Virus genome (UHGV): UHGV-0244087
Source: a virus
DNA length: 24,829 nt
Reading direction: 5' to 3' (one strand)
This document shows, piece by piece, positions 1 through 21,176 of this stretch. The notes under the pieces were generated by a model. It worked only from the letters and a program-made list of their open reading frames with translations. It made no database searches and was not told the DNA's origin. The position numbers were made by a program, and so were the translations under genes. The stretch's first letter is position 1. Each line of letters starts with the position of its first letter.

Positions 1-1233
1 AGGATATTGTTCTTTTGTAAAGGCGCGCCCGTCGCACTTTAACCAGCCTGCTGGCGGTGTGGCGGTGGGCCACGGAACAGGCACACCAACGGGTAGCGCC
101 GAGCCTTCTCCTAAACCAAGGTAATTGAGGACATCTTTTATACTGCCCTTAGCGATAATAGCGCGACCAATAGCTGTAAGGGTTGCCAGCGCTGCGCGGT
201 CTGCTCCGGTAAAATAAGGCAACCGATCTGCTGCAGTGGCAAGTCCTGCCAGAGCAGTGAGCGTGGCATCTGCCGGTTGTTTTCCGTTTGCCAGATCGTA
301 TGCAGCCTTGACCGCTTTCGGTGTGGCGGCCAGTATTTCAGACGTGCTGTTGATAGCACTGCTCAGTTGTACGGTGCCTTTTGCCGTCAGCGAGGCAGCA
401 GGCACTCCCGTTATCTGACTCCACGGGTGAGTGTGGCTGACGGGCGCCTTGCCGGCTGCAAGGTCGTATGCAGCCTTGACGGCCTTTGGTGTGGCGGCCA
501 GTATTTCAGACGTGCTGTTGATGGCACTGCTCAATTGTACGGTGCCTTTTGCCGTCAGCGAGGCAGCAGGCACTCCCGTTATCTGACTCCACGGGTGAGT
601 GTGGCTGACGGGGGCCTTGCCGGCTGCAAGGTCGTATGCCGCCTTGACGGCTTTTGGTGTGGCGGCCAGCGTTTCAGAGGTGCTGTTGGTGGCGCTGCTA
701 AGTTGAACAAAGCCTTTTGTGGTCAGCGAGGCGTCCGGGTGACGTCGTGACTGTTCGTGCTTTGAGATTTTATCATCCACATATTTGCGGGTTGCCAGAA
801 CCACAGACGGGTCGATTTTCAGCGTGATGGCTTCGGTGTTCGTGACAACCAGAATCATGCGGATAGTCTGGGTGCGTCCACTGCCTTCCTGCAACTGCGG
901 TTTGTACGTTTCCGGGCAGTTTGCCACCGCAATGAGTACACCTTCATCATCATAAAGACCAATCTCACGGATCCAGAATCCTCCCTCGCTTTCAGGGATG
1001 ATTTGCTCCGCAATAATCTGGCTCTGATTGTTAGGGTCAACACTCAGAAGATTCAGCGGTGCAATGCGTTTCTGGTTAATCAGTTTTGTTTGTGCAGGGT
1101 CTGGTGTTGGTAACACACCATTTGCATCACCAACGGCCATTTGCGTCAGATTCAGCTTACTGCCGAGCATCGTCGCGTTAGCCAGTCGTGCCGCGCCCTG
1201 ATTAGTCAGAATGGCGTAGTATTTCACTGTCAT
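1..1233 (-). CDS. H: Tail fibre protein (P2 gpH-like), partial; the 3' end runs off the window
   Basis: ATG at 1231-1233 (minus) overlaps the stop of the I gene; the frame stays open to position 1. Translation contains three tandem 56-aa repeats typical of phage tail-fibre repeats. Sits where H follows I in P2 gene order. Confidence 0.85.
   Translation of the reverse strand, partial: MTVKYYAILTNQGAARLANATMLGSKLNLTQMAVGDANGVLPTPDPAQTKLINQKRIAPLNLLSVDPNNQSQIIAEQIIPESEGGFWIREIGLYDDEGVLIAVANCPETYKPQLQEGSGRTQTIRMILVVTNTEAITLKIDPSVVLATRKYVDDKISKHEQSRRHPDASLTTKGFVQLSSATNSTSETLAATPKAVKAAYDLAAGKAPVSHTHPWSQITGVPAASLTAKGTVQLSSAINSTSEILAATPKAVKAAYDLAAGKAPVSHTHPWSQITGVPAASLTAKGTVQLSSAINSTSEILAATPKAVKAAYDLANGKQPADATLTALAGLATAADRLPYFTGADRAALATLTAIGRAIIAKGSIKDVLNYLGLGEGSALPVGVPVPWPTATPPAGWLKCDGRAFTKEQYP
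280..740. repeat. Three tandem copies of a ~168-bp unit inside the tail fibre gene (third copy degenerate)
   Basis: The 17-mer tcgtatgcagccttgac recurs at 296 and 464, and with one change at 632, giving a 168-bp period. The plus-strand ORF 277..750 in the track is an artefact of this repeat. Confidence 0.9.
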
Positions 1234-13364: not shown

Positions 13365-14410
13365 TGAGCAGAAAAAATAAAAAAGTGCGCATGAGTTCAC
13401 GCATTGATCTCGCTGATGCGCTCAGGAAAGAATCATCGCTCAGTGCATTCACATTTGATGGTCCTTATCGCCTGACCGGGCATGACCTGCTGGACAATAT
13501 GTACTGTGCTGATAACGGGCGGTGGTATGAAACCCCGGTGGACTGGTACGGTCTGGCAAGAGCAGCCCGGCAAACGTCCTGGCATCAGTCTGCGCTTTAC
13601 TTTAAGCGCAATGTATTACTCGGTTGCTACATCCCGCACCCGCTGCTTTCCCGGCAGGATTTCTCGGCGCTGGCGCTGGACTGGTTTGTGTTCGGTAACG
13701 CATTCCTTGAGCTTCGAAGCAATATGCTCGGCGAACCGCTTAAATTACGGCACGCCCTGGCGAAATACATGCGACGCGGAAGCGATCTTGAATCATGGTG
13801 GTATGTGCAGGATGGCAAGGACGCGTTTCAGTTTCGTCCTGGCAAAGTGTGCCACCTGATGAATCCGGATATTAACCAGGAAATCTACGGCATGCCGGAA
13901 TATCTTGGCGCATTACTCTCGGCCAGCCTTTCTCATTCGGCGGACATGTTCAGAAAACTGTACTACGACAACGGATCCCACGCCGGGTGCATCATCTACA
14001 TCGGTGCAGCGCAGGTAAACCGCGAAAGCATGGACTCCCTGAAAGAAACGCTACAGGGGGCACGTGGTGGTGGTGCGTTTAAAAACGTGCTCATTCATGC
14101 GCCCAACGGGGGCAAAGAGGGGGTGCAAATTTTGCCGTTCCAGCAGATCACCGCAAAAGATGAATTCATGAATGTTAAGGCGGCATCCCGTGATGATGTG
14201 CTGGCTGCGCACCGCGTTCCGCCGCAACTGATGGGGGCGATGCCGGGCGAAAAAAGTGCGTTTGGCGATGTGGAGAAGGCAGCGCGGGTTTACGCAATTA
14301 ACGAGCTGATGCCCGTCATGGAGGCTATGAAGCACATCAATGACTGGCTTGGCGAAGAGGTGATCCGTTTTAACTCTTATGCTCTTCTTGATGAAAAAAC
14401 AGCCCCGTGA
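13364..14410 (+). CDS. Q: Portal protein Q
   Basis: 348 aa; FTFDGP..WYETPV..GLAR resembles recalled P2 gpQ; sits downstream of P. Confidence 0.9.
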   Translation: MSRKNKKVRMSSRIDLADALRKESSLSAFTFDGPYRLTGHDLLDNMYCADNGRWYETPVDWYGLARAARQTSWHQSALYFKRNVLLGCYIPHPLLSRQDFSALALDWFVFGNAFLELRSNMLGEPLKLRHALAKYMRRGSDLESWWYVQDGKDAFQFRPGKVCHLMNPDINQEIYGMPEYLGALLSASLSHSADMFRKLYYDNGSHAGCIIYIGAAQVNRESMDSLKETLQGARGGGAFKNVLIHAPNGGKEGVQILPFQQITAKDEFMNVKAASRDDVLAAHRVPPQLMGAMPGEKSAFGDVEKAARVYAINELMPVMEAMKHINDWLGEEVIRFNSYALLDEKTAP

Positions 14411-14420
14411 TGGGGCTGTC
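14399..14420. terminator. Bidirectional intrinsic terminator between convergent Q and the 174-aa gene
   Basis: Perfect hairpin cagcccc-gtgat-ggggctg (14400-14418), flanked by an A-run upstream and a T-run downstream. Confidence 0.75.
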
Positions 14421-14424
14421 CTTT

Positions 14425-14949
14425 TTACCAGAGTTGAACCATTTTCTGGGTGCCGTCAGGCTTGAGATTATCAATTTCAGAGAGAACGTAATATTGAATG
14501 GCTTCACAAACGGTGGTGTAGGGTGAATTACCTTCTTTAAGTGGCACGATATTATTATTAACGCGAACCTGTATTTCATCGTTATACATTGCGATCGAAA
14601 CAGGCGTGTGCACGAACGCGACTTCGCCAGGTGTGTCGTCAACCACCGTTTCAATACTAAAAGTCAGTTTTCGCTCATCATTGCTGCCCCGTGCTTTGGG
14701 GGTAGCGGCAGGGATCTGGGATAAAGGCATTCTGCGAAATCCTTCGGCTGCTTCCAGTCCGCATGAAACGTAATGCTGGCGATTACCGTCGCTATCTGTC
14801 CAGGTCTGTGATGGCAGCTCCAGCGAGATTTCATAAGCATCAACAATGCCCTGGGCAAGGCGTACAAGCGGGGTCAGATCTTCATTGCGGCGAAAGCTCT
14901 CCTTTACCTGCTCCCGTTTTTCTCTTAACTGCTTGTAATTAATGACCAT
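14425..14949 (-). CDS. Hypothetical 174-aa protein, orphan cargo convergent with portal
   Basis: ATG at 14947-14949 with a GGAGG ribosome-binding site 8 nt upstream. No family recognised. Confidence 0.65.
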   Translation of the reverse strand: MVINYKQLREKREQVKESFRRNEDLTPLVRLAQGIVDAYEISLELPSQTWTDSDGNRQHYVSCGLEAAEGFRRMPLSQIPAATPKARGSNDERKLTFSIETVVDDTPGEVAFVHTPVSIAMYNDEIQVRVNNNIVPLKEGNSPYTTVCEAIQYYVLSEIDNLKPDGTQKMVQLW

Positions 14950-15048
14950 AAGACAGCCTCCATTGATTTCTTTGCTCGTATTTTGCACTTATGAAGTATG
15001 GTCGGCAAGGTGCCGTATCGCTGACGCGCTTCGCTTGTCTGCTGCTTC

Positions 15049-15077
15049 GCCGGGGCATAAAAAATTTATGCCCCGGC
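15049..15077. repeat. Perfect 29-bp palindrome in the non-coding stretch upstream of the 174-aa gene
   Basis: gccggggcat-aaaaaattt-atgccccggc, 10-bp arms extendable to 13 bp through the A/T loop. No U-tract follows on either strand. Confidence 0.7.
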
Positions 15078-15448
15078 TCTCCAGCTCCTGTATCAATCAG
15101 ATAATTTCACGACGCCTTCCAGTTTATCGCCACCATCGACGGTCAGACTCTTACGCAATTCCACCGCGTTGACTGTATGTTCTCGCTGCCTCAGTGCGAT
15201 TTTGACGGCCTTACCTTTCACCCCATCAAATCAAAAGCCCTCACGCCTTTTTCATGCTCAGCGTGAGAAATATGGCCATTCTGTTGTGTCTCTGCGACAT
15301 CGTTCAGGGAATGCTATTTACCCCCTGAAACGCGGGCTGTTCCCCCGTCACCTGCGCGCAGAAAAAGCGCGTTTTTTTGTGCACGCACGGATCCTTGACG
15401 GATCCAGCCGCCATGCGGGCCGGAAGGGTAAAAAGTCGTTCAAAAAAA

Positions 15449-15478
15449 TTGTGCAAATTTGTGCACTTTTGTGCAAAC
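15449..15478. repeat. Three tandem 10-bp iterons (TTGTGCA core)
   Basis: ttgtgcaaat, ttgtgcactt, ttgtgcaaac in direct succession; a fourth ttgtgca core lies at 15377-15383. Confidence 0.7.
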
Positions 15479-15480
15479 AA

Positions 15481-15505
15481 AAAGCGCCCCTGAGGCGCTT
15501 TAGTG
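15481..15505 (-). terminator. Intrinsic terminator ending the minus-strand cargo operon
   Basis: Hairpin agcgcc-cctga-ggcgct followed on the minus strand by a T-rich run (ttttgtttg); lies about 30 nt after the stop of the 87-aa gene. Confidence 0.65.
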
Positions 15506-15535
15506 TTTTATAGGTTGTGTATATTTGCTGGGTCC

Positions 15536-15799
15536 TTATCCTGCTGTGCTTTCAACTGATGAGGGGAACAAAATCTTTTCATCAAACCCTGCATTCATAT
15601 CATGGACAGCAACACACCAATCCATTGACGAACGATTATCAAGAGCCTCCATGATTTCATCCATGCGGCGCAGGTCATACAGGTAAATGCTTTTATCGCC
15701 AATGGTGTAAAAACCAATTTTTTTCGGTGATGGACAGCGATCAAGAACGTCCTGTAATTCGCTCAACCATGCTTGTTCTTTTTTTGTCAAAGTTGCCAT
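15536..15799 (-). CDS. Hypothetical 87-aa protein, fourth gene of the cargo operon
   Basis: ATG with an AAGGAGAG ribosome-binding site that is embedded in the last codons of the upstream gene. No family recognised. Confidence 0.6.
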   Translation of the reverse strand: MATLTKKEQAWLSELQDVLDRCPSPKKIGFYTIGDKSIYLYDLRRMDEIMEALDNRSSMDWCVAVHDMNAGFDEKILFPSSVESTAG

Positions 15800-15800
15800 A

Positions 15801-16292
15801 TCACTCTCCTTTGATGCGAATGCCAGTGGTACTCATTCTCCTGATTTCCCAGAGCACACGAGGAACACCACCGTTTCCGACCGGATCGCGTTTACTCCGC
15901 AGGGCGACGCTTGATTCCGCCCAGCTTTTTCTTGGAGGAAGCTCTTTCACACGAACAAAACCAGCTGCGCGGAGAGATGCTCCTGATTCATCTGCCTGGG
16001 TGTACGTAATACAACGTTGATAACCCATAGCCTTTGCTGCCCGCCAGACAGCACCATAAAGCGCGCTGTTAGCGTTGCGTTCTCCTGTGGTACATGTGCG
16101 ATTTACTTCAAGCGTTAATCCATCGTCCAAATGTCGTGCAACAGGTCTACCGGCTGTCGCCACACCTATCAATTCTCCGGCATCATTTCTCAGACCAATG
16201 CTGAATTTATGCCCCACCGGGGGTTTATTGTGTCGGTGATGTCTGGATATAAACGCCTTCGCAACACGAAGAGTAACCGGTGAAATTTGCAT
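15801..16292 (-). CDS. Hypothetical 163-aa protein, third gene of the cargo operon; possibly acyltransferase-like
   Basis: ATG at 16290-16292, 2 nt after the stop of the 104-aa gene, with the same embedded ribosome-binding site. A loose resemblance to GNAT-toxin N-terminal regions (FISRHHRHNKPP..IGVATAG) is not verified. Confidence 0.6.
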   Translation of the reverse strand: MQISPVTLRVAKAFISRHHRHNKPPVGHKFSIGLRNDAGELIGVATAGRPVARHLDDGLTLEVNRTCTTGERNANSALYGAVWRAAKAMGYQRCITYTQADESGASLRAAGFVRVKELPPRKSWAESSVALRSKRDPVGNGGVPRVLWEIRRMSTTGIRIKGE

Positions 16293-16294
16293 TC

Positions 16295-16609
16295 TCACTC
16301 TCCTTTGATGCCAATGTTTACAGACTGGCAAGCCTCTTTGAGCACCCAGTCAACAGCGTCTTTCCATGCTCCGGTTTCGACTGGCGGATTCTCACGCTTT
16401 ACCTGTTCATAGAAATGTACTGCTCTAACCAGTCCATCTGACGGTTTTGCCTGTAGTGCAGCCTGAGCTATGCGGTATGCCTGGAGCATACGGGCGTCGT
16501 TGATATCCATTCCGAACGGAATTTCTGATGATTGTGACTCTGCATCTTCAAGCCTGGCAATTTCTTTACGTAAGAAGTATTTCAACTCTTGTTTCTGTTT
16601 TCTGTTCAT
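16295..16609 (-). CDS. Hypothetical 104-aa helical protein, second gene of the cargo operon
   Basis: ATG overlaps the stop of the upstream gene (ATGA). C-terminus ...NIGIKGE parallels the ...GIRIKGE end of the next protein. Confidence 0.6.
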
Positions 16610-16938
16610 GCGTTTTTTTCCTTTTTGTCTGTCACTTCTTTCCTGATAATTTCATTGCACAAATCCACGCACTCATTGCAGATGTAAACAGACGGTCCGG
16701 CAATCACCTTTGTGACTTCGTACTGGGATTTATTGCAGAAGCTGCAATAAACCGTCTTCTCGCCTGAAGTCCATGTTTTGCTGGTTTCGCCAGACATCAG
16801 TTGTTTGAGGTCTTTTTCACGACGAAGAACTATCTGGCCACATTCAGCTATTTTTTGGATGTTGACATTTTCTTCTTTCGCCAGCGCTTCCATCCGCTCA
16901 ATCAGTCGCTGCGCTTTTTCTCTGTCAATGTGTTGCAT
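16606..16938 (-). CDS. 110-aa protein with a C-terminal ClpX-type C4 zinc-binding domain and an N-terminal helical region
   Basis: [41 protein letters not shown] is near-identical in pattern to the recalled E. coli ClpX N-terminal domain ([40 protein letters not shown]), with the same C-x2-C-x18-C-x2-C spacing. ATG with an AGGGGGA ribosome-binding site. Confidence 0.75.
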
Positions 16939-16972
16939 TGTGTCCCCCTTGTTTATGCTCCCGGGTTAAAGT

Positions 16973-16996
16973 CATCAGGGCGGATGCGCCCTGATG
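16973..16996. other. Perfect 10-bp-stem hairpin between parR and the zinc-binding-domain gene
   Basis: catcagggcg-gatg-cgccctgatg. No U-tract follows on the minus strand, so it is unlikely to be a simple terminator. Confidence 0.6.
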
Positions 16997-17001
16997 TTGT
17001 G

Positions 17002-17313
17002 TTATTCGGGAAATAACGCCCGGATATTTCCGGCCATCTGACTGGTTATCTGTGCGGCTGATACTGGCTGTGACGCGGGGCGTTCTGTCCTGGTTTGTGT
17101 CATTGATAACGCCTCATCATCAGCCCATGCAGCCAGTCGGTAAGCCTCTGCCGGATTCATTTTCAGTAGTGCCAGCCCGGCCAGAAAAGCCACGCGTTGA
17201 CCACTTTTGCGGGCTTCTGGTGTAAGGCTGTCCAGCCAGGCGCATGCTTCGCCTTCGTTCTTGACGGCGGCGGGCTTCAGATAGAAACTTATCCGTCTGG
17301 TTGGTGTCGTCAT
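17002..17313 (-). CDS. parR: ParR (StbB)-like centromere-binding protein
   Basis: 103 aa; RRISFYLKP..LDSLTPEARKS..AFLAGLALL..NIRALFPE parallels recalled R1 ParR (RRTIAFKLNP..LDSIPQGERSR..LTAGLALY..LRSLFPKE). AAGGAG ribosome-binding site; start 5 nt after the parM stop. Confidence 0.75.
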   Translation of the reverse strand: MTTPTRRISFYLKPAAVKNEGEACAWLDSLTPEARKSGQRVAFLAGLALLKMNPAEAYRLAAWADDEALSMTQTRTERPASQPVSAAQITSQMAGNIRALFPE

Positions 17314-17317
17314 TGGT

Positions 17318-18277
17318 TTACTCCTTGCCCATTGCGTACAGCCCATTAACCAGAGCAAACTGTGGCACCCCGTCCGCGATGAAAGTCGCATTAACTCCGC
17401 AGGCTTCGCGGATAGCGGGTGCCACAATCTCTGCCCCGCCACCGACAACCATCACCCGCCCGTAACCCGAAAAACCCGCCAGCGCGCGGATCACGCGTTG
17501 TTTCAGTGTTTCTTCCTTTTCACGAATAACCGCCATCAGGCTGGCGTAATGCGCGTCATTGTGGATGTGCTGGCGCAGCCAGGCTTCATCATGGCGATGT
17601 TCGATAATGGTATTGGCGATGTGGTGACTGGTACGCATACCGTTAGTGGCCATCACCGACAGTACGGCATCGGCCATCAGGGAAACGCCTACGTGTGGAT
17701 CGCAAAACACCTGGCTGATACCTGCCAGTTGTCCCTGAACCTTTGCCACATCCAGCGTGGTTCCGCCTAAATCCACAATCAGCAGGGATTCAAACGGACT
17801 CATGTCAGCCAGTGCCTTAAAGCCAGCCGGAATGGATTCAGGCATAACCCGTACGTTACGGATAGTGAATGCTTCGCCGTTCTGGTACTCCACCGGGCGC
17901 ATAACGTTCGCTTTTTTGCGGTTGATGTTGGCTATGTCCGGCTGTGCGTTTGTGTCGAAATACTCGCTCAGTGGCAGGGTGACAACCACATCCACCTCCT
18001 GTGGCGTGATGCCTGATTTGACCAGCGCGTGATGAATGGCAATGACATTCACATCGCTGTACTGGTATTGCGTGTCAGTCGTCTGGACAAAGCGATCGCT
18101 GACCGGATCAAAACCATAGCGCACGCCATCAAGCATGTAGTTCGCGGGCTGCGTGCCACCGAACGGCGCAGACCATTCCGACTTGAAGCTGTTCGGGCTG
18201 ATGGCGTTGCGGCGTTCGCCGTTCTCAGTCCATGCCAGCTTGATGTTGGTGGAGCCGTCATCGATACAAATTTTCAT
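17318..18277 (-). CDS. parM: ParM (StbA)-like actin-family ATPase
   Basis: 319 aa; MKICIDDGSTNIKL..ISPNSFK..YSDVNVIAIHHAL..VMPESIPAG..LIVDLGGTTLD..VGGGAE tracks recalled R1 ParM along its length. Confidence 0.85.
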   Translation of the reverse strand: MKICIDDGSTNIKLAWTENGERRNAISPNSFKSEWSAPFGGTQPANYMLDGVRYGFDPVSDRFVQTTDTQYQYSDVNVIAIHHALVKSGITPQEVDVVVTLPLSEYFDTNAQPDIANINRKKANVMRPVEYQNGEAFTIRNVRVMPESIPAGFKALADMSPFESLLIVDLGGTTLDVAKVQGQLAGISQVFCDPHVGVSLMADAVLSVMATNGMRTSHHIANTIIEHRHDEAWLRQHIHNDAHYASLMAVIREKEETLKQRVIRALAGFSGYGRVMVVGGGAEIVAPAIREACGVNATFIADGVPQFALVNGLYAMGKE

Positions 18278-18307
18278 GTCGCTTTTCCTTATGTTGATTA
18301 ATTAATC

Positions 18308-18418
18308 GTTTACGGGATTCTGAAATCCCGTTTTTGCCTGTTTTATGCGCGCTTCATATATCGCGGCGCGTTTTTTGCTCATTTACGGGATTTGTGAATC
18401 CCGTTTCTGTCTGTTTTT
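18308..18418. repeat. Two direct copies of a ~37-bp element, each with an 8-bp inverted repeat (acgggatt..aatcccgt) followed by a T-rich tail
   Basis: Copy 1 at 18308-18344 (gtttacgggattctgaaatcccgtttttgcctgtttt) and copy 2 at 18382-18418, 74 bp apart. They lie just upstream of parM, and copy 2 overlaps the last codons of A. Confidence 0.75.
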
Positions 18419-21176
18419 TGTTTCCACTGGTCAGGCCACCCCGCAGCAGGTCTGCTTTGCGGCGGGCGCGTTCAGTGGTTTCACTGATTCTCTGTGCGTG
18501 CTCTGCGTCGCGGATGGCGCGCAGCATGTCAGAAAGCACGGTAACGGGTGTTTTCATGGTGTTCTGGTCTTGCTGAAGTGTGGATGCCAGGCGTGCGGCG
18601 GCTTCGGGGTCTGATGCCCTCAGCTGTTCCAGATAGCTGGCGACCGGGTTATGGCGGATCTCCGTACTGCTTACGCCGTGGTTACGGCTCAGGCGCTGCC
18701 AGAGCTGCGTGATCCGGCTGTCCGGTCGGGTATCCGGTTTGCGTACAATTTCAAATCCCTGCGGTGCAATGATGCTGCCGTCAACGTACAGACTGCCGCC
18801 CCGTAACAGGTGCTGCATCTGCTGTTCACCGATATGCAGGCCGAGAGATTCGGCAGATTCCCGCCATTCTTTAGCGAGTAATTCGTGGTTATCAGGCAAA
18901 GGCCGCTGCTGTTTGCGGCTCTGTGTCCAGCTCTGCATTTCATCACTGCTGTTTTTTGCCTGTTTGTCACGAAGCGAACGCATCAGCGCCCGGCGTTCGT
19001 GCCGTTTCAGTGAGCGCATCCATTCGTTCACGTCAACGCCGTCAGGAAGCTGCGGCCACGGTGCTGGCCGTTCTTCCGGCTGTTCTGTCCCGTTGTTGTC
19101 CGTTTCCTGTACACGGGGACAGTTATTGCCACGAGTCCAAGGGGCGGCATGGCCGCCCTGAAGGTCAAAACCATTTTCGCGGGCGTTGTCTTCTGGTTCT
19201 GGTTTACGTCTTACCAACTTCCAGTTATCCGGATGCGTGCACACACGGGAGGATTCCCCGATGAGTGGTGACCAGATCCCGTAAATCTGTACGCTCTGTT
19301 CGCCGTAATCGTTCAGCTCATCTGCGAGGTCGTAGGCGGTGCGAATCAGGTAGTCCTTGCGTGGAACAAGCACGCCACCCTGTTTTTCAATGTAGGAGGC
19401 AAAACACCCGGCATCAGCGGCAGCGAGTACCGCATCCATTGCATCATCCTTCAGCCGTTGCGGGCCTTCCGGGTTGCGTGCCATCTGGCTGGCAAGGCGG
19501 CGGAGTTCACGCCATACCTGACGGGAGGGGATGCCAAAGAACTGGAACTGGCGGACCCGATGAAGACGCGCCCAGCCAATGGCGCGCTCCACGCTCTCGG
19601 CCATTGATTTTCCGGTTTCGTGGTCAACGCGTGGCTTGCCCGTTTTCGGGTCGATGCCATCTACGGCGCGGCTGTCCAGGTTTTTTCCGATGTAGGTCGC
19701 GATATAGCTGGTTGGTGTGCCTTTTGAGCCGTCGACATACTCCGCCTTAAAGCGCGGAGTAATATCATCGCCCAGTTCGTGACGATCTTCCTGAATGGCA
19801 ATATCGCGGGTGATGGCCACGATGCTGTCGATTTCTTCCGGATGAGCAAAGACCATCATATGCCAGTGCACGGTGCCGTCATGGTGAGGCTCCACCGTGC
19901 GGATGCCATACCAGCGCAGGCCGTCGCGGTTCAGTTTTTTGCGGACTGCCGCAAAAAACGTGTTAACCAGGTAATCGCTGGAGTCGCGCATGGTGGCCCC
20001 GTTCCATTTGGGGTTCGGATGACCGTTCTCCGTTGTTGCGTGGTATTTTGACGGGCAGGTGACGGTCAGAAACACCGCTCTGTCGCTACGGGCTTCGGCC
20101 AGAAGTTCCAGTCCCTTCATGGTGGCCATCATTTCTGCCTTACGGTGAACCGGGTTACTTACTCCCGCGTAATACACCGTCTCGAGATCAATCGTGAACC
20201 CGTCTTCATTTTCCAGCATGAAACTTTTCAGGAAATCGCGTGTTTTCTCGCGCTGTGCGCGAAACTCGCTTAACGCGTCCTGGCTCAGATAGGGCGATGT
20301 TTTTCTGGAAACCAGACAGGCGGCGCGGAGTTGTTCTTCTCTCCACTCGCAACGTAACAGCCACAGTTTGCGTTTCCACCATTCCGCACAGGTCAGGCGG
20401 AGGATTGCGCCCGGCAGCAGCTCCGTGTCCGGTTCGTTCCTCCGGTCTTTGTCTGTTGTCAGTGCGTCATAATGTGGAGGCATGGCGTGCAGGTGTAACG
20501 CCATGCGGGCCAGCATCTGATACGCCTTCAGCGTTACATCCATGGTCAGTTCGCCATCAGTCGCGCCAAAGCCATCGCAGAGTTTTTCGAAGGTGCTGCT
20601 GAACATCGCCGCCGTCATGGTGGCCAGCGTCTGTATCTGGTGTTTGTTGAGCTGCGGCAGGTAAAGCAAATCGTCCAGGCGTTCGCGTCCGGCAAGGGAG
20701 CGATAACCCGGTGTCAGCCAGCGTCTGTCAGTGCGATCCAGACGTTCGAATATTTTGCGCAGGGTTCCGCGTGCATAGCGTTCCGCCTGCCAGCTCTTTT
20801 TGCCTTTCCGGCGATCGGCTTCCTGTTTTTTGCGCAGGAAGGAGAGGTGGCGAATAAGCGGATCGCGCAGATAGGACGGCAGCAGGCGCAGCGAGGCCAT
20901 GGCTTCATCCACCGCGCCGCGTGCCCGTTTTCTGGCGTCTCCTGCCAGTGTGATGGTTTTGTCCTGTTTTTCCTGTGCGTCCAGGCTTTTATTAATCAGG
21001 TTGCCCAGCGGTGTGGCGGAGAACGCCGCATCAGCCATTTCCTGGCGGCGTTCGTTCTCTGCCCGGTAGGCATCCAGCCAGGAGGAAAGTGCGGATTCAG
21101 GTGCGGGGATCTCCGTTCCTTCACGTCCTACTGCGTGGCGCGGTTGTTGCCAGTCCCTGATGTACTCTGCCGTCAT
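18354..21176 (-). CDS. A: Replication initiation endonuclease A (rolling-circle), with a long C-terminal extension
   Basis: 940 aa, recognised as P2 gpA-like from overall sequence and position downstream of the early-region ORFs; ATG start. Recalled P2 gpA is 761 aa. Confidence 0.85.
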   Translation of the reverse strand: MTAEYIRDWQQPRHAVGREGTEIPAPESALSSWLDAYRAENERRQEMADAAFSATPLGNLINKSLDAQEKQDKTITLAGDARKRARGAVDEAMASLRLLPSYLRDPLIRHLSFLRKKQEADRRKGKKSWQAERYARGTLRKIFERLDRTDRRWLTPGYRSLAGRERLDDLLYLPQLNKHQIQTLATMTAAMFSSTFEKLCDGFGATDGELTMDVTLKAYQMLARMALHLHAMPPHYDALTTDKDRRNEPDTELLPGAILRLTCAEWWKRKLWLLRCEWREEQLRAACLVSRKTSPYLSQDALSEFRAQREKTRDFLKSFMLENEDGFTIDLETVYYAGVSNPVHRKAEMMATMKGLELLAEARSDRAVFLTVTCPSKYHATTENGHPNPKWNGATMRDSSDYLVNTFFAAVRKKLNRDGLRWYGIRTVEPHHDGTVHWHMMVFAHPEEIDSIVAITRDIAIQEDRHELGDDITPRFKAEYVDGSKGTPTSYIATYIGKNLDSRAVDGIDPKTGKPRVDHETGKSMAESVERAIGWARLHRVRQFQFFGIPSRQVWRELRRLASQMARNPEGPQRLKDDAMDAVLAAADAGCFASYIEKQGGVLVPRKDYLIRTAYDLADELNDYGEQSVQIYGIWSPLIGESSRVCTHPDNWKLVRRKPEPEDNARENGFDLQGGHAAPWTRGNNCPRVQETDNNGTEQPEERPAPWPQLPDGVDVNEWMRSLKRHERRALMRSLRDKQAKNSSDEMQSWTQSRKQQRPLPDNHELLAKEWRESAESLGLHIGEQQMQHLLRGGSLYVDGSIIAPQGFEIVRKPDTRPDSRITQLWQRLSRNHGVSSTEIRHNPVASYLEQLRASDPEAAARLASTLQQDQNTMKTPVTVLSDMLRAIRDAEHAQRISETTERARRKADLLRGGLTSGNKKQTETGFTNPVNEQKTRRDI

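What the first reader, a model, noticed from the sequence alone, without database searches (positions are those of the whole stretch)
15799..16316. Identical 17-nt junction box at two consecutive gene boundaries
The sequence tcactctcctttgatgc occurs at 15801-15817 and again at 16295-16311. Each time it encodes the last residues (IKGE plus stop) of one gene and the AAGGAGAG ribosome-binding site of the next. Flanking sequence diverges on both sides. This pattern suggests cassette-style recombination, with modules swapped at a conserved linker, or a shared translational-coupling element.
Basis: seen in the sequence. Interest (0 to 1): 0.5.

Follow-up and report, generated by a model that had tools for sequence, protein, structure and literature searches.

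The report
Conserved ea22 gene-end recombination linker
The repeated 17-base box is the conserved last stretch of phage lambda-type ea22 genes (final codons, stop and the next gene's ribosome-binding site), and across E. coli phages it is the seam at which unrelated small accessory genes have been joined in many combinations. This is a clear example of a known kind of mosaic boundary sequence.

Summary
TCACTCTCCTTTGATGC occurs exactly twice, at 15801-15817 and 16295-16311, and nowhere else even with 3 mismatches. On the minus strand it encodes IKGE plus TGA and holds an AAGGAG Shine-Dalgarno 6-7 nt before the next ATG.

The window is a P2-like (P88-like) phage, 100% identical to Escherichia phage PhiR44_2. 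The box is the 3' end of lambdoid ea22-family genes; lambda Ea22 itself ends AGIRIKGE. In 136 occurrences I found 12 unrelated upstream C-terminal regions and 17 downstream gene families, in 52 combinations. Conservation is a roughly 30-nt island, and homology breakpoints flank it tightly.

The coding is almost invariant at synonymous sites (107 of 122). One contig carries the box out of frame. So a DNA segment is shared, not just a peptide.

In the window, box 1 ends a short Ea22-like gene. Box 2 ends an XF1762 (Mom-like) gene whose tail is grafted, since most homologues stop about 10 residues earlier. Compared with P88, the breakpoint of an 809-nt replacement lies inside box 1.

The best reading is a short-homology recombination linker that also serves as a portable stop/RBS adaptor. 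The kind is known, but I found no description of this box.

The parts
16295..16311 (-). Box 1. The 17-mer GCATCAAAGGAGAGTGA on the coding strand holds the last codons (IKGE), the TGA of the Ea22-like 104-aa gene, and the AAGGAG SD for the XF1762 gene.
   Evidence: The breakpoint against phage P88 lies inside it, at 16298/16299.
16290..16324 (-). Conserved island around box 1, about -13 to +21 relative to the 17-mer. It includes the ATG of the next gene.
   Evidence: Conservation profile over 70 dereplicated junctions.
15801..15817 (-). Box 2. The same 17-mer holds the last codons (IKGE), the TGA of the XF1762-family gene, and the SD for the 87-aa gene.
   Evidence: Homology to lambdoid L004 (15791-16438) and to L006/L007 (15533-15827) overlaps only here.
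15796..15830 (-). Conserved island around box 2: ACTGGCATTC + 17-mer + T + ATG.
16295..16609 (-). 104-aa short Ea22-like gene. Its C-terminal half (..[25 protein letters not shown]) is one of the C-terminal domain types carried by full-length Ead/Ea22-like proteins.
   Evidence: upstream cluster 2; L199, L202, L204; phrog_26213, phrog_660. No Pfam hit.
15801..16292 (-). 163-aa XF1762-family (Mom-like, acetyltransferase-fold) gene. It is flanked by the two boxes, and its last ~10 residues (MSTTGIRIKGE) are a grafted ea22 tail.
   Evidence: NCBIfam XF1762_fam 5e-61. PHROG 1384 Mom-like. Homologue alignment and tail counts.
15536..15799 (-). 87-aa gene (phrog_1714, function unknown). It starts 1 nt after box 2. 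In other phages it follows several different Ea22 variants.
   Evidence: (downstream cluster 1).
15481..15501 (-). Intrinsic-terminator-like hairpin that closes the minus-strand operon (gene A, parM, parR-like, ClpX-zf, Ea22-like, XF1762, 87-aa).
15490..16298 (-). 809-nt segment that replaces 53 nt of phage P88. It holds the XF1762 gene, box 2, the 87-aa gene and part of the terminator. Most of it (15533-16298) is 93-99% identical to lambdoid phages.
16606..16938 (-). 110-aa ClpX zinc-finger-only gene just upstream, overlapping the next gene's start by ATGA. Relatives sit directly after ea22 boxes in lambdoid contigs.
   Evidence: downstream cluster 9.

Best explanation
The box is the conserved 3'-terminal segment of ea22-family genes from the lambdoid exo-xis region. 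The typical form is GCTGGCATTCGCATCAAAGGAGAGTGA, encoding AGIRIKGE plus stop.

It does two things. First, inferred from geometry, it is a compact expression adaptor. It terminates the upstream ORF and supplies a strong AAGGAG Shine-Dalgarno 6-7 nt before a start codon that lies 1-2 nt past the stop, so whatever gene is placed behind it is translated.

Second, it is nearly the only sequence shared by otherwise unrelated neighbours, so it is the seam at which modules are exchanged. That exchange pattern is shown by comparison. The mechanism is inferred: most likely short-homology recombination by phage single-strand-annealing recombinases (Red-beta, RecT or Erf type) in cells that hold several phages.

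Occasional illegitimate joints just upstream of the box have fused its tail onto foreign genes. The XF1762 gene here is one such case. This produces genes flanked by two boxes that can then move or be lost as a cassette.

In this window a P88-like P2-family phage already carried a short Ea22-like gene. It acquired the block of XF1762 gene, box 2 and 87-aa gene from lambdoid phages, with one crossover inside box 1.
For: Identity of the box:
- Lambda Ea22 (PDB 8DSX) ends AGIRIKGE.
- Lambda-derived contigs carry the exact 17-mer.
- Of 39 unique Ea22 proteins found only through their N-terminus, 24 end in the exact box and 3 more have 1 mismatch.

Combinatorial joining:
- 12 upstream C-terminal clusters and 17 downstream families give 52 distinct pairs among 118 junctions.
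- Of 8001 junction pairs, 733 share only the upstream flank, 531 share only the downstream flank, and 108 share both.
- Divergence starts at +17 to +24, or ends at -18 to -1.
- Conservation is an island from about -13 to +21.

Shared DNA, not just a shared peptide:
- 107 of 122 sites encoding G-I-(R/S)-I-K-G-E-stop use one identical coding.
- L178 carries the box out of frame.
- The XF1762 core ends about 10 residues earlier in most homologues. 56 of 94 end within 4 residues of WEIR, and only about 3 carry the tail.

This window:
- The P88 breakpoint is inside box 1.
- The two lambdoid homology blocks overlap only at box 2.

Feasibility:
- The exact run shared by junctions unrelated on both sides has a median of 25 bp, and 65% are at least 23 bp.
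- Minimal efficient pairing is 23-27 bp for Red-beta and 31-34 bp for RecA (PMC3945230).

Spread across phage lineages: Hendrixvirinae, Lederbergvirus, Uetakevirus, Punavirus (P1-like), Nonanavirus and P88-like Peduoviridae.
Against: - No experiment shows that crossovers happen inside the box. Conservation for RBS or termination function, with selection retaining only joints at the gene boundary, would give similar patterns.
- About a third of unrelated junction pairs share under 23 bp of exact identity, which is marginal for homologous pairing.
- A single linker explains only one crossover. The second one is undefined. In the window the right-hand junction (15489/15490, near the terminator) has no box.
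- The main sample was ascertained through the exact 17-mer and is dominated by E. coli prophages, so counts include shared ancestry.
- In lambda itself no start codon directly follows the box.
Confidence: 0.72

Rival explanations
1. The box is purely an expression element. It is conserved only because it combines a stop codon with a strong Shine-Dalgarno for translational coupling. Module joints arise by illegitimate recombination anywhere, and selection keeps those at the gene boundary. The box is not itself a crossover site.
For: AAGGAG lies 6-7 nt before starts placed 1-2 nt after the stop at essentially all junctions. Ea22 variants without the box often still end in AAAGGAG-like codons. 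Most phage mosaic boundaries lack conserved sequences (PMC3029335).
Against: SD function constrains only about 6-8 nt. Yet GGCATTCGCATC upstream of the SD is also identical at synonymous sites in 107 of 122 cases, across unrelated flanks. The breakpoints against P88 and the lambdoid phages fall within or at the island. The shared exact run has a median of 25 bp, the size that Red-beta needs (PMC3945230).
Confidence: 0.2
2. A conserved C-terminal peptide. AGIRIKGE is a functional motif, such as a degron or docking tail, that is selected at the protein level. The DNA identity follows from that.
For: The tail is kept in frame on 12 unrelated C-terminal domains and on XF1762 and HNH proteins.
Against: There is almost no synonymous variation. 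An out-of-frame box exists in L178. Most XF1762 homologues lack any such tail. P88 reads through a degenerate box. The Ea22 structure paper counts 64 structured residues in the 81-residue C-terminal domain, which leaves room for a disordered tail, though that is my inference (PMC10834534).
Confidence: 0.05
3. A local tandem duplication or a chance repeat. The two copies are a remnant of duplicated paralogous genes in this genome, or a coincidence.
For: The copies are two direct repeats 494 nt apart at equivalent gene-end positions.
Against: The proteins are unrelated (E = 2.1). The chance expectation is 0.10 even with 3 mismatches allowed. The same box joins other genes in more than 100 other contigs.
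Confidence: 0.02

Closest known systems
Conserved boundary ('linker') sequences at mosaic junctions of lambdoid phages. These come from the Susskind and Botstein 1978 modular theory and Clark et al. 2001 (HK620), as cited in PMC3029335.
   Same: It is a short sequence conserved between phages whose flanks are unrelated. It lies at a gene boundary, and homology breakpoints coincide with it. The proposed role is homologous recombination between otherwise dissimilar genomes.
   Different: Here the linker lies inside coding sequence (the last 8 codons) and doubles as stop plus RBS. It has been grafted onto non-ea22 genes. It is found outside lambdoids, in P2-like, P1-like and 9NA-like phages. I found no paper describing this particular box: a search for 'IRIKGE' gave 0 papers.
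Mosaic ea22 genes of the lambda and Stx-phage exo-xis region (PMC10834534).
   Same: The box is the 3' end of lambda ea22. Ea22 proteins are described there as mosaic, with a common N-terminus and coiled coil and unrelated C-terminal domains. Gene content beyond ea22 is described as highly diverse.
   Different: That paper says the C-terminal sequences bear no similarity apart from a 16-aa segment in two variants. It does not mention the shared terminal octapeptide or 17-27-nt box, nor its role as the seam with the variable region.
Relaxed homologous recombination by Rad52-like phage recombinases (De Paepe et al. 2014, PMC3945230).
   Same: It offers a mechanism that forms mosaics from short stretches of identity. 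The minimal pairing segment for Red-beta is 23-27 bp, which matches the 25-bp median shared run.
   Different: That work used diverged homology of hundreds of bp. Here the homology is one isolated island of about 25-30 bp, and no experiment has been done on it.
Integron attC gene cassettes.
   Same: Single promoterless genes are bounded by a repeated short element and occur in many combinations.
   Different: There is no integrase and no imperfect palindrome. The element is coding plus RBS. Exchange is presumably by general or SSAP recombination, not site-specific.

Membership tests
Mosaic boundary (linker) sequence | Short sequence conserved among genomes whose flanking sequences are unrelated on both sides | tested here: met
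   The island runs from about -13 to +21 with background conservation beyond it. 6578 junction pairs are unrelated on both flanks yet share the box.
Mosaic boundary (linker) sequence | Located at a gene or module boundary | tested here: met
   The box always ends an ORF, and the next start lies 1-2 nt downstream.
Mosaic boundary (linker) sequence | Pairwise homology breakpoints coincide with the sequence, and partners are reassorted | tested here: met
   733 pairs are same-upstream/different-downstream and 531 are the reverse, with breakpoints at +17 to +24 and -18 to -1. There are 52 combinations. The P88 breakpoint lies inside box 1.
Mosaic boundary (linker) sequence | Recombination demonstrably occurs within the sequence | not testable with these tools
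   This needs phage crosses. Only the feasibility argument is available: a 25-bp median run against the Red-beta pairing minimum of 23-27 bp (PMC3945230).
ea22 (Ead/Ea22-like) gene 3' end | Identical to the terminal codons of lambda ea22 and its relatives | tested here: met
   PDB 8DSX 'Protein ea22' ends AGIRIKGE. 24 of 39 Ea22 proteins chosen through their N-terminus end in the exact 17-mer.
ea22 (Ead/Ea22-like) gene 3' end | The gene carrying it is an Ead/Ea22-family gene | tested here: inconclusive
   Box 1: the 104-aa gene shares its C-terminal half with full-length Ea22-like proteins but has no Pfam Ead_Ea22 hit. Box 2: the carrier is an XF1762-family gene, not ea22, so there the tail is a graft.
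Translational-coupling junction | Shine-Dalgarno complementary to the 16S 3' end at 5-9 nt from the start, with the upstream stop within a few nt of the downstream start | tested here: met
   AAGGAG is followed by a 6-7 nt spacer and ATG, and TGA lies 1-2 nt before ATG.
Translational-coupling junction | Downstream translation depends on upstream translation | not testable with these tools
   This needs reporter fusions with upstream nonsense mutations.
Integron-type cassette site (attC) | Imperfect inverted repeat recombination site with an associated tyrosine-recombinase integrase | tested here: not met
   There is no inverted repeat at or near the boxes. Neighbouring genes are gpA, ParM, ParR-like, ClpX-zf, portal and terminase.
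Paralogous gene duplication | Extended similarity between the two genes carrying the repeat | tested here: not met
   BLASTP E = 2.1. DNA similarity is limited to 37 nt.

The most novel reading that the evidence does not exclude
The ea22 terminal box may be a true, actively used recombination hinge: a self-propagating stop/RBS adaptor. It would let promoterless accessory genes hop as box-flanked cassettes between unrelated temperate phage families (lambdoid, P2-like, P1-like, 9NA-like) without any site-specific recombinase, using phage annealing recombinases on only about 25 bp of identity. That would make it the first well-populated, experimentally tractable example of the Susskind-Botstein linker, whose general existence has long been doubted.
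Probability: 0.35. Interest if true: 0.6.

Novelty: new member of a known kind. Interest (0 to 1): 0.38.

Why it matters
Whether phage mosaics arise by homologous exchange at short conserved linkers or by random illegitimate joining followed by selection is an old, unsettled question. Most junctions show no linker.

This junction is unusually clean and abundant:
- it is one 25-30-bp island;
- it has dozens of partner combinations;
- it is present in phage lambda itself;
- it is shared across several phage families.

So it gives a directly testable substrate. One could recode the box and measure exchange. It also explains why unrelated small proteins (XF1762/Mom-like, HNH, Ea22 variants) share an odd ...GIRIKGE tail, which matters for annotation and domain analysis. 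For this window specifically, it shows that part of the cargo of a P2-like phage was imported from lambdoid phages.

Tried and rejected
- Chance repeat: rejected.
- Paralogous duplication: rejected.
- Integron-like or palindromic site: rejected, since there are no inverted repeats and no integrase.
- Peptide-level conservation: rejected as the main cause, given the synonymous-site test and the out-of-frame copy.
- N-terminal similarity. The DNA similarity just after the boxes (ATGCAAATTTCAC versus ATGGCAACTTTGAC, in different frames) suggested a shared ancestral start. But MQISPVTL/MxIxPITL is the native N-terminus of the XF1762 family across genera, so I treat this as coincidental.
- Pfam and NCBIfam gave nothing for the 104-aa and 87-aa proteins.
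- Literature searches found the general concept but no description of this box. The searches were 'IRIKGE', ea22 + mosaic, boundary sequences, and HK620 linker. Clark et al. 2001 is not in the library, so I could not check whether it lists this junction.
- The genome-contig scan mostly returned chance hits and lambda contamination, and added little on host range.
- I did not use structure prediction, the metagenome scan or RNA-family searches, because they do not bear on the question.

Full report
**Observation.** The 17-mer TCACTCTCCTTTGATGC is present exactly at 15801-15817 and 16295-16311. No other site in the 24,829-nt window matches even with three mismatches, where shuffles give a mean of 0.10. 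All genes here are on the minus strand. On that strand the box reads GCATCAAAGGAGAGTGA, that is ..ATC AAA GGA GAG TGA, or IKGE plus stop. It terminates the 104-aa ORF 16295-16609 and the 163-aa ORF 15801-16292. The next start codons lie 2 nt (ATG at 16292) and 1 nt (ATG at 15799) after the stops, and AAGGAG sits 6-7 nt upstream of them. Ungapped similarity extends to 37 nt at 84%. The two proteins are otherwise unrelated (BLASTP E = 2.1).

**Context.** The window is 100% identical to Escherichia phage PhiR44_2 and is a P88-like member of the P2 family. It carries a P2-type capsid, terminase, portal and gpA replication protein, plus ParM and a ParR-like protein. The boxes lie in the minus-strand operon, whose order is:
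- gpA
- parM
- parR-like gene
- a 110-aa ClpX zinc-finger-only gene
- the 104-aa gene, ending in box 1
- the 163-aa gene, ending in box 2
- an 87-aa gene
- a terminator at 15481-15501

This stretch is a variable cargo region among P88-like phages. The 163-aa protein is an XF1762-family protein (NCBIfam 5e-61; PHROG 'Mom-like DNA modification protein'). The 87-aa protein is phrog_1714, of unknown function.

**What the box is.** Megablast of 14400-18400 against phage genomes showed that pieces of 15533-16441 are 92-99% identical to lambdoid and other temperate phages. The homology blocks begin or end at the boxes. In HK022, VSe13, Kapi1, PAS61, 689R5 and PDP110P2 the exact 17-mer ends genes annotated Ea22 or Ead/Ea22-like, or the XF1762 gene, and is followed by different genes. 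Lambda Ea22 itself ends ...AGIRIKGE (PDB 8DSX), and lambda-derived contigs carry the exact box. I also collected Ea22 genes only through their conserved N-terminus, so the sample was independent of the box. Of 39 unique proteins:
- 24 end in the exact 17-mer;
- 3 have one mismatch;
- 3 have a GIRIKGGE variant;
- 9 end differently.

The box is therefore the usual 3' end of ea22-family genes. According to PMC10834534, ea22 is the last gene of the conserved exo-xis cassette, and gene content beyond it is highly diverse.

**Different genes are joined through it.** Together with the phage loci this gave 136 occurrences. The 60 residues preceding the tail fall into 12 unrelated clusters. These include several Ea22 C-terminal domain types, XF1762 and an HNH endonuclease. 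The downstream genes fall into 17 families. Among 118 scorable junctions there are 52 distinct combinations.

In 70 dereplicated contexts, conservation is an island from about -13 to +21 relative to the 17-mer, with consensus GC.GCTGGCATTC-GCATCAAAGGAGAGTGA-tATG. It falls to background on both sides.

Of 8001 pairs of unique junctions:
- 733 share the upstream flank but not the downstream flank;
- 531 show the reverse;
- only 108 share both.

Divergence begins at +17 to +24, or ends at -18 to -1.

**DNA-level, not peptide-level, conservation.** I scanned for any coding of G-I-(R/S)-I-K-G-E-stop. Of 122 sites, 107 use the identical 24-mer GGCATTCGCATCAAAGGAGAGTGA, and the rest differ at one position in a few lineages. 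In L178 the box is fused out of frame to a lambda-type Ea22 domain, giving ...ITHQRRVI*. The XF1762 family core ends at ...RVLWEIRR. Of 94 homologues with that motif, 56 stop within 4 residues and only about 3 carry MST(T/A)GIRIKGE. The tail on the window's XF1762 gene is therefore a graft of the ea22 3' end. SD function can explain the constraint on AAAGGAG but not on the preceding GGCATTCGCATC. Outside enterobacterial phages the 17-mer occurs at about chance frequency. There are 113 hits in 596 Gb against roughly 69 expected, and 31 of the 113 are lambda contamination.

**History in this window.** Against P88, window 16299-17100 aligns at 97% and 15021-15489 at 92%. The 809 nt in between replace 53 nt of P88. 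The left breakpoint lies inside box 1: P88 reads GCATCAAAGGAGAcctag and runs on for 8 more codons. Within the replaced segment, 15791-16438 is 98.6% identical to lambdoid Wanchaivirus PDP110P2, and 15533-15827 is 95-97% identical to 689R5 and VSe13. The two blocks overlap only at box 2. The box-XF1762-box arrangement occurs in 154 of 5426 complete E. coli genomes. It is found in P88-like prophages, in a YfdQ/YfdR-type lambdoid prophage, and on a 97.6-kb plasmid. The box also occurs in a P1-like Punavirus, and twice, in degenerate form, in a Nonanavirus. Other tandem-box arrangements exist as well.

**Mechanism.** Shown by comparison: the box is the seam of a highly reassorted junction, and it is shared as DNA. 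Inferred: exchange occurs by short-homology recombination within the island. Junctions unrelated on both sides share an exact run with a median of 25 bp. Of these, 65% are at least 23 bp and 14% at least 31 bp. Reported minimal efficient pairing segments are 23-27 bp for Red-beta and 31-34 bp for RecA (PMC3945230), and lambdoid phages encode such annealing recombinases close to this region (for example RecT in Kapi1 and Erf in HK022). Also inferred: the box acts as a stop/SD adaptor that secures translation of whatever lies downstream. That would explain why joints retaining it are the ones that survive.

The main rival is that the box is conserved only for expression and the joints are illegitimate. 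Sequence alone cannot exclude this, and I give it about 0.2. A single linker also leaves the second crossover unexplained. In the window the right-hand junction, near the terminator, has no box.

**Comparison with known systems and novelty.** This is an instance of the 'short conserved boundary sequences' proposed to mediate mosaicism (Susskind and Botstein 1978; Clark et al. 2001; cited in PMC3029335). That paper also notes that such sequences are absent from most mosaic boundaries. Ea22 mosaicism is known (PMC10834534), but that paper states the C-terminal regions share no similarity beyond one 16-aa segment. A full-text search for IRIKGE returned nothing. I could not read Clark et al. 2001.

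I therefore rate this as a new, unusually clear member of a known kind. Its noteworthy features are that it lies inside coding sequence, that it has been grafted onto foreign genes, and that it spans several phage families. Interest is moderate. It is not a new mechanism, but it is a good experimental handle on an old question.

Noticed in passing
window 289-732: A 168-nt tandem repeat, 2.6 copies at 91% identity. It lies in the tail-fibre gene H of PhiR44_2, so it encodes 56-aa repeats in the fibre. This looks ordinary.
   Followed up: partly
window 17187-17204 and 19620-19637: A perfect 18-nt inverted repeat (AAGCCACGCGTTGACCAC / GTGGTCAACGCGTGGCTT) with arms 2.4 kb apart. One arm is in the parR-like gene region and the other is inside replication gene A. 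It is unlikely by chance in 25 kb. Its function is unknown.
   Followed up: no
window about 15449-15478: Three TTGTGCA repeats at 10-11 nt spacing sit just beyond the operon terminator. They are conserved in P88 and vB_EcoM-569R5, at the edge of the variable cargo region. They may be a protein-binding array.
   Followed up: no
window 16606-16938: A 110-aa protein that consists of little more than a ClpX-type C4 zinc finger (Pfam 6.8e-18). A related 107-aa protein sits directly after ea22 boxes in lambdoid contigs. It could be a phage decoy or modulator of ClpX adaptor binding.
   Followed up: partly
L217, L224, L240, L242, L246, L249, L258 and about 24 further genome-contig loci: Tiny or low-coverage contigs in assemblies of unrelated taxa (Streptococcus, Prevotella, Streptomyces, Bacillus, Bradyrhizobium and others) carry the phage lambda ea22 3' end verbatim. 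This is almost certainly lambda DNA contamination of those assemblies.
   Followed up: partly
L178 (IMGVR_UViG_2778261673_000008), Ea22 gene end: The box is fused out of frame to a lambda-type Ea22 C-terminal domain. This gives ...TIDIITHQRRVI* and an ATGA stop/start overlap with the next gene. It looks like a natural recombination scar.
   Followed up: partly
L345 2269-2285 and 2468-2484 (phage PJ16, Nonanavirus); L344 2268-2284 (phage 813R1, Punavirus): Box or box-like junctions occur in a 9NA-like phage and in a P1-like phage. The 9NA-like phage has two copies 199 nt apart, both after ...AAQNRWKNH(F/L)R(I/T)KGE. So consecutive boxes recur outside lambdoid and P2-like phages.
   Followed up: partly
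A1 alignment (XF1762 homologues P0006, P0021, P0033, P0034): XF1762 proteins from Klebsiella, Salmonella and Enterobacter carry other tails (AAGIKVEVK, AAGIQVIEGEDGE, ATTAGIKLQIEGE). These resemble diverged ea22-type ends, hinting at lineage-specific variants of the same junction box in other genera.
   Followed up: no
L002 1000-1040 (phage P88): P88 has a degenerate box without a stop (GCATCAAAGGAGACCTA). The first 9 nt, GCATCAAAG, recur 22 nt downstream, just before its stop codon. This may be the remnant of a box-to-box deletion.
   Followed up: no
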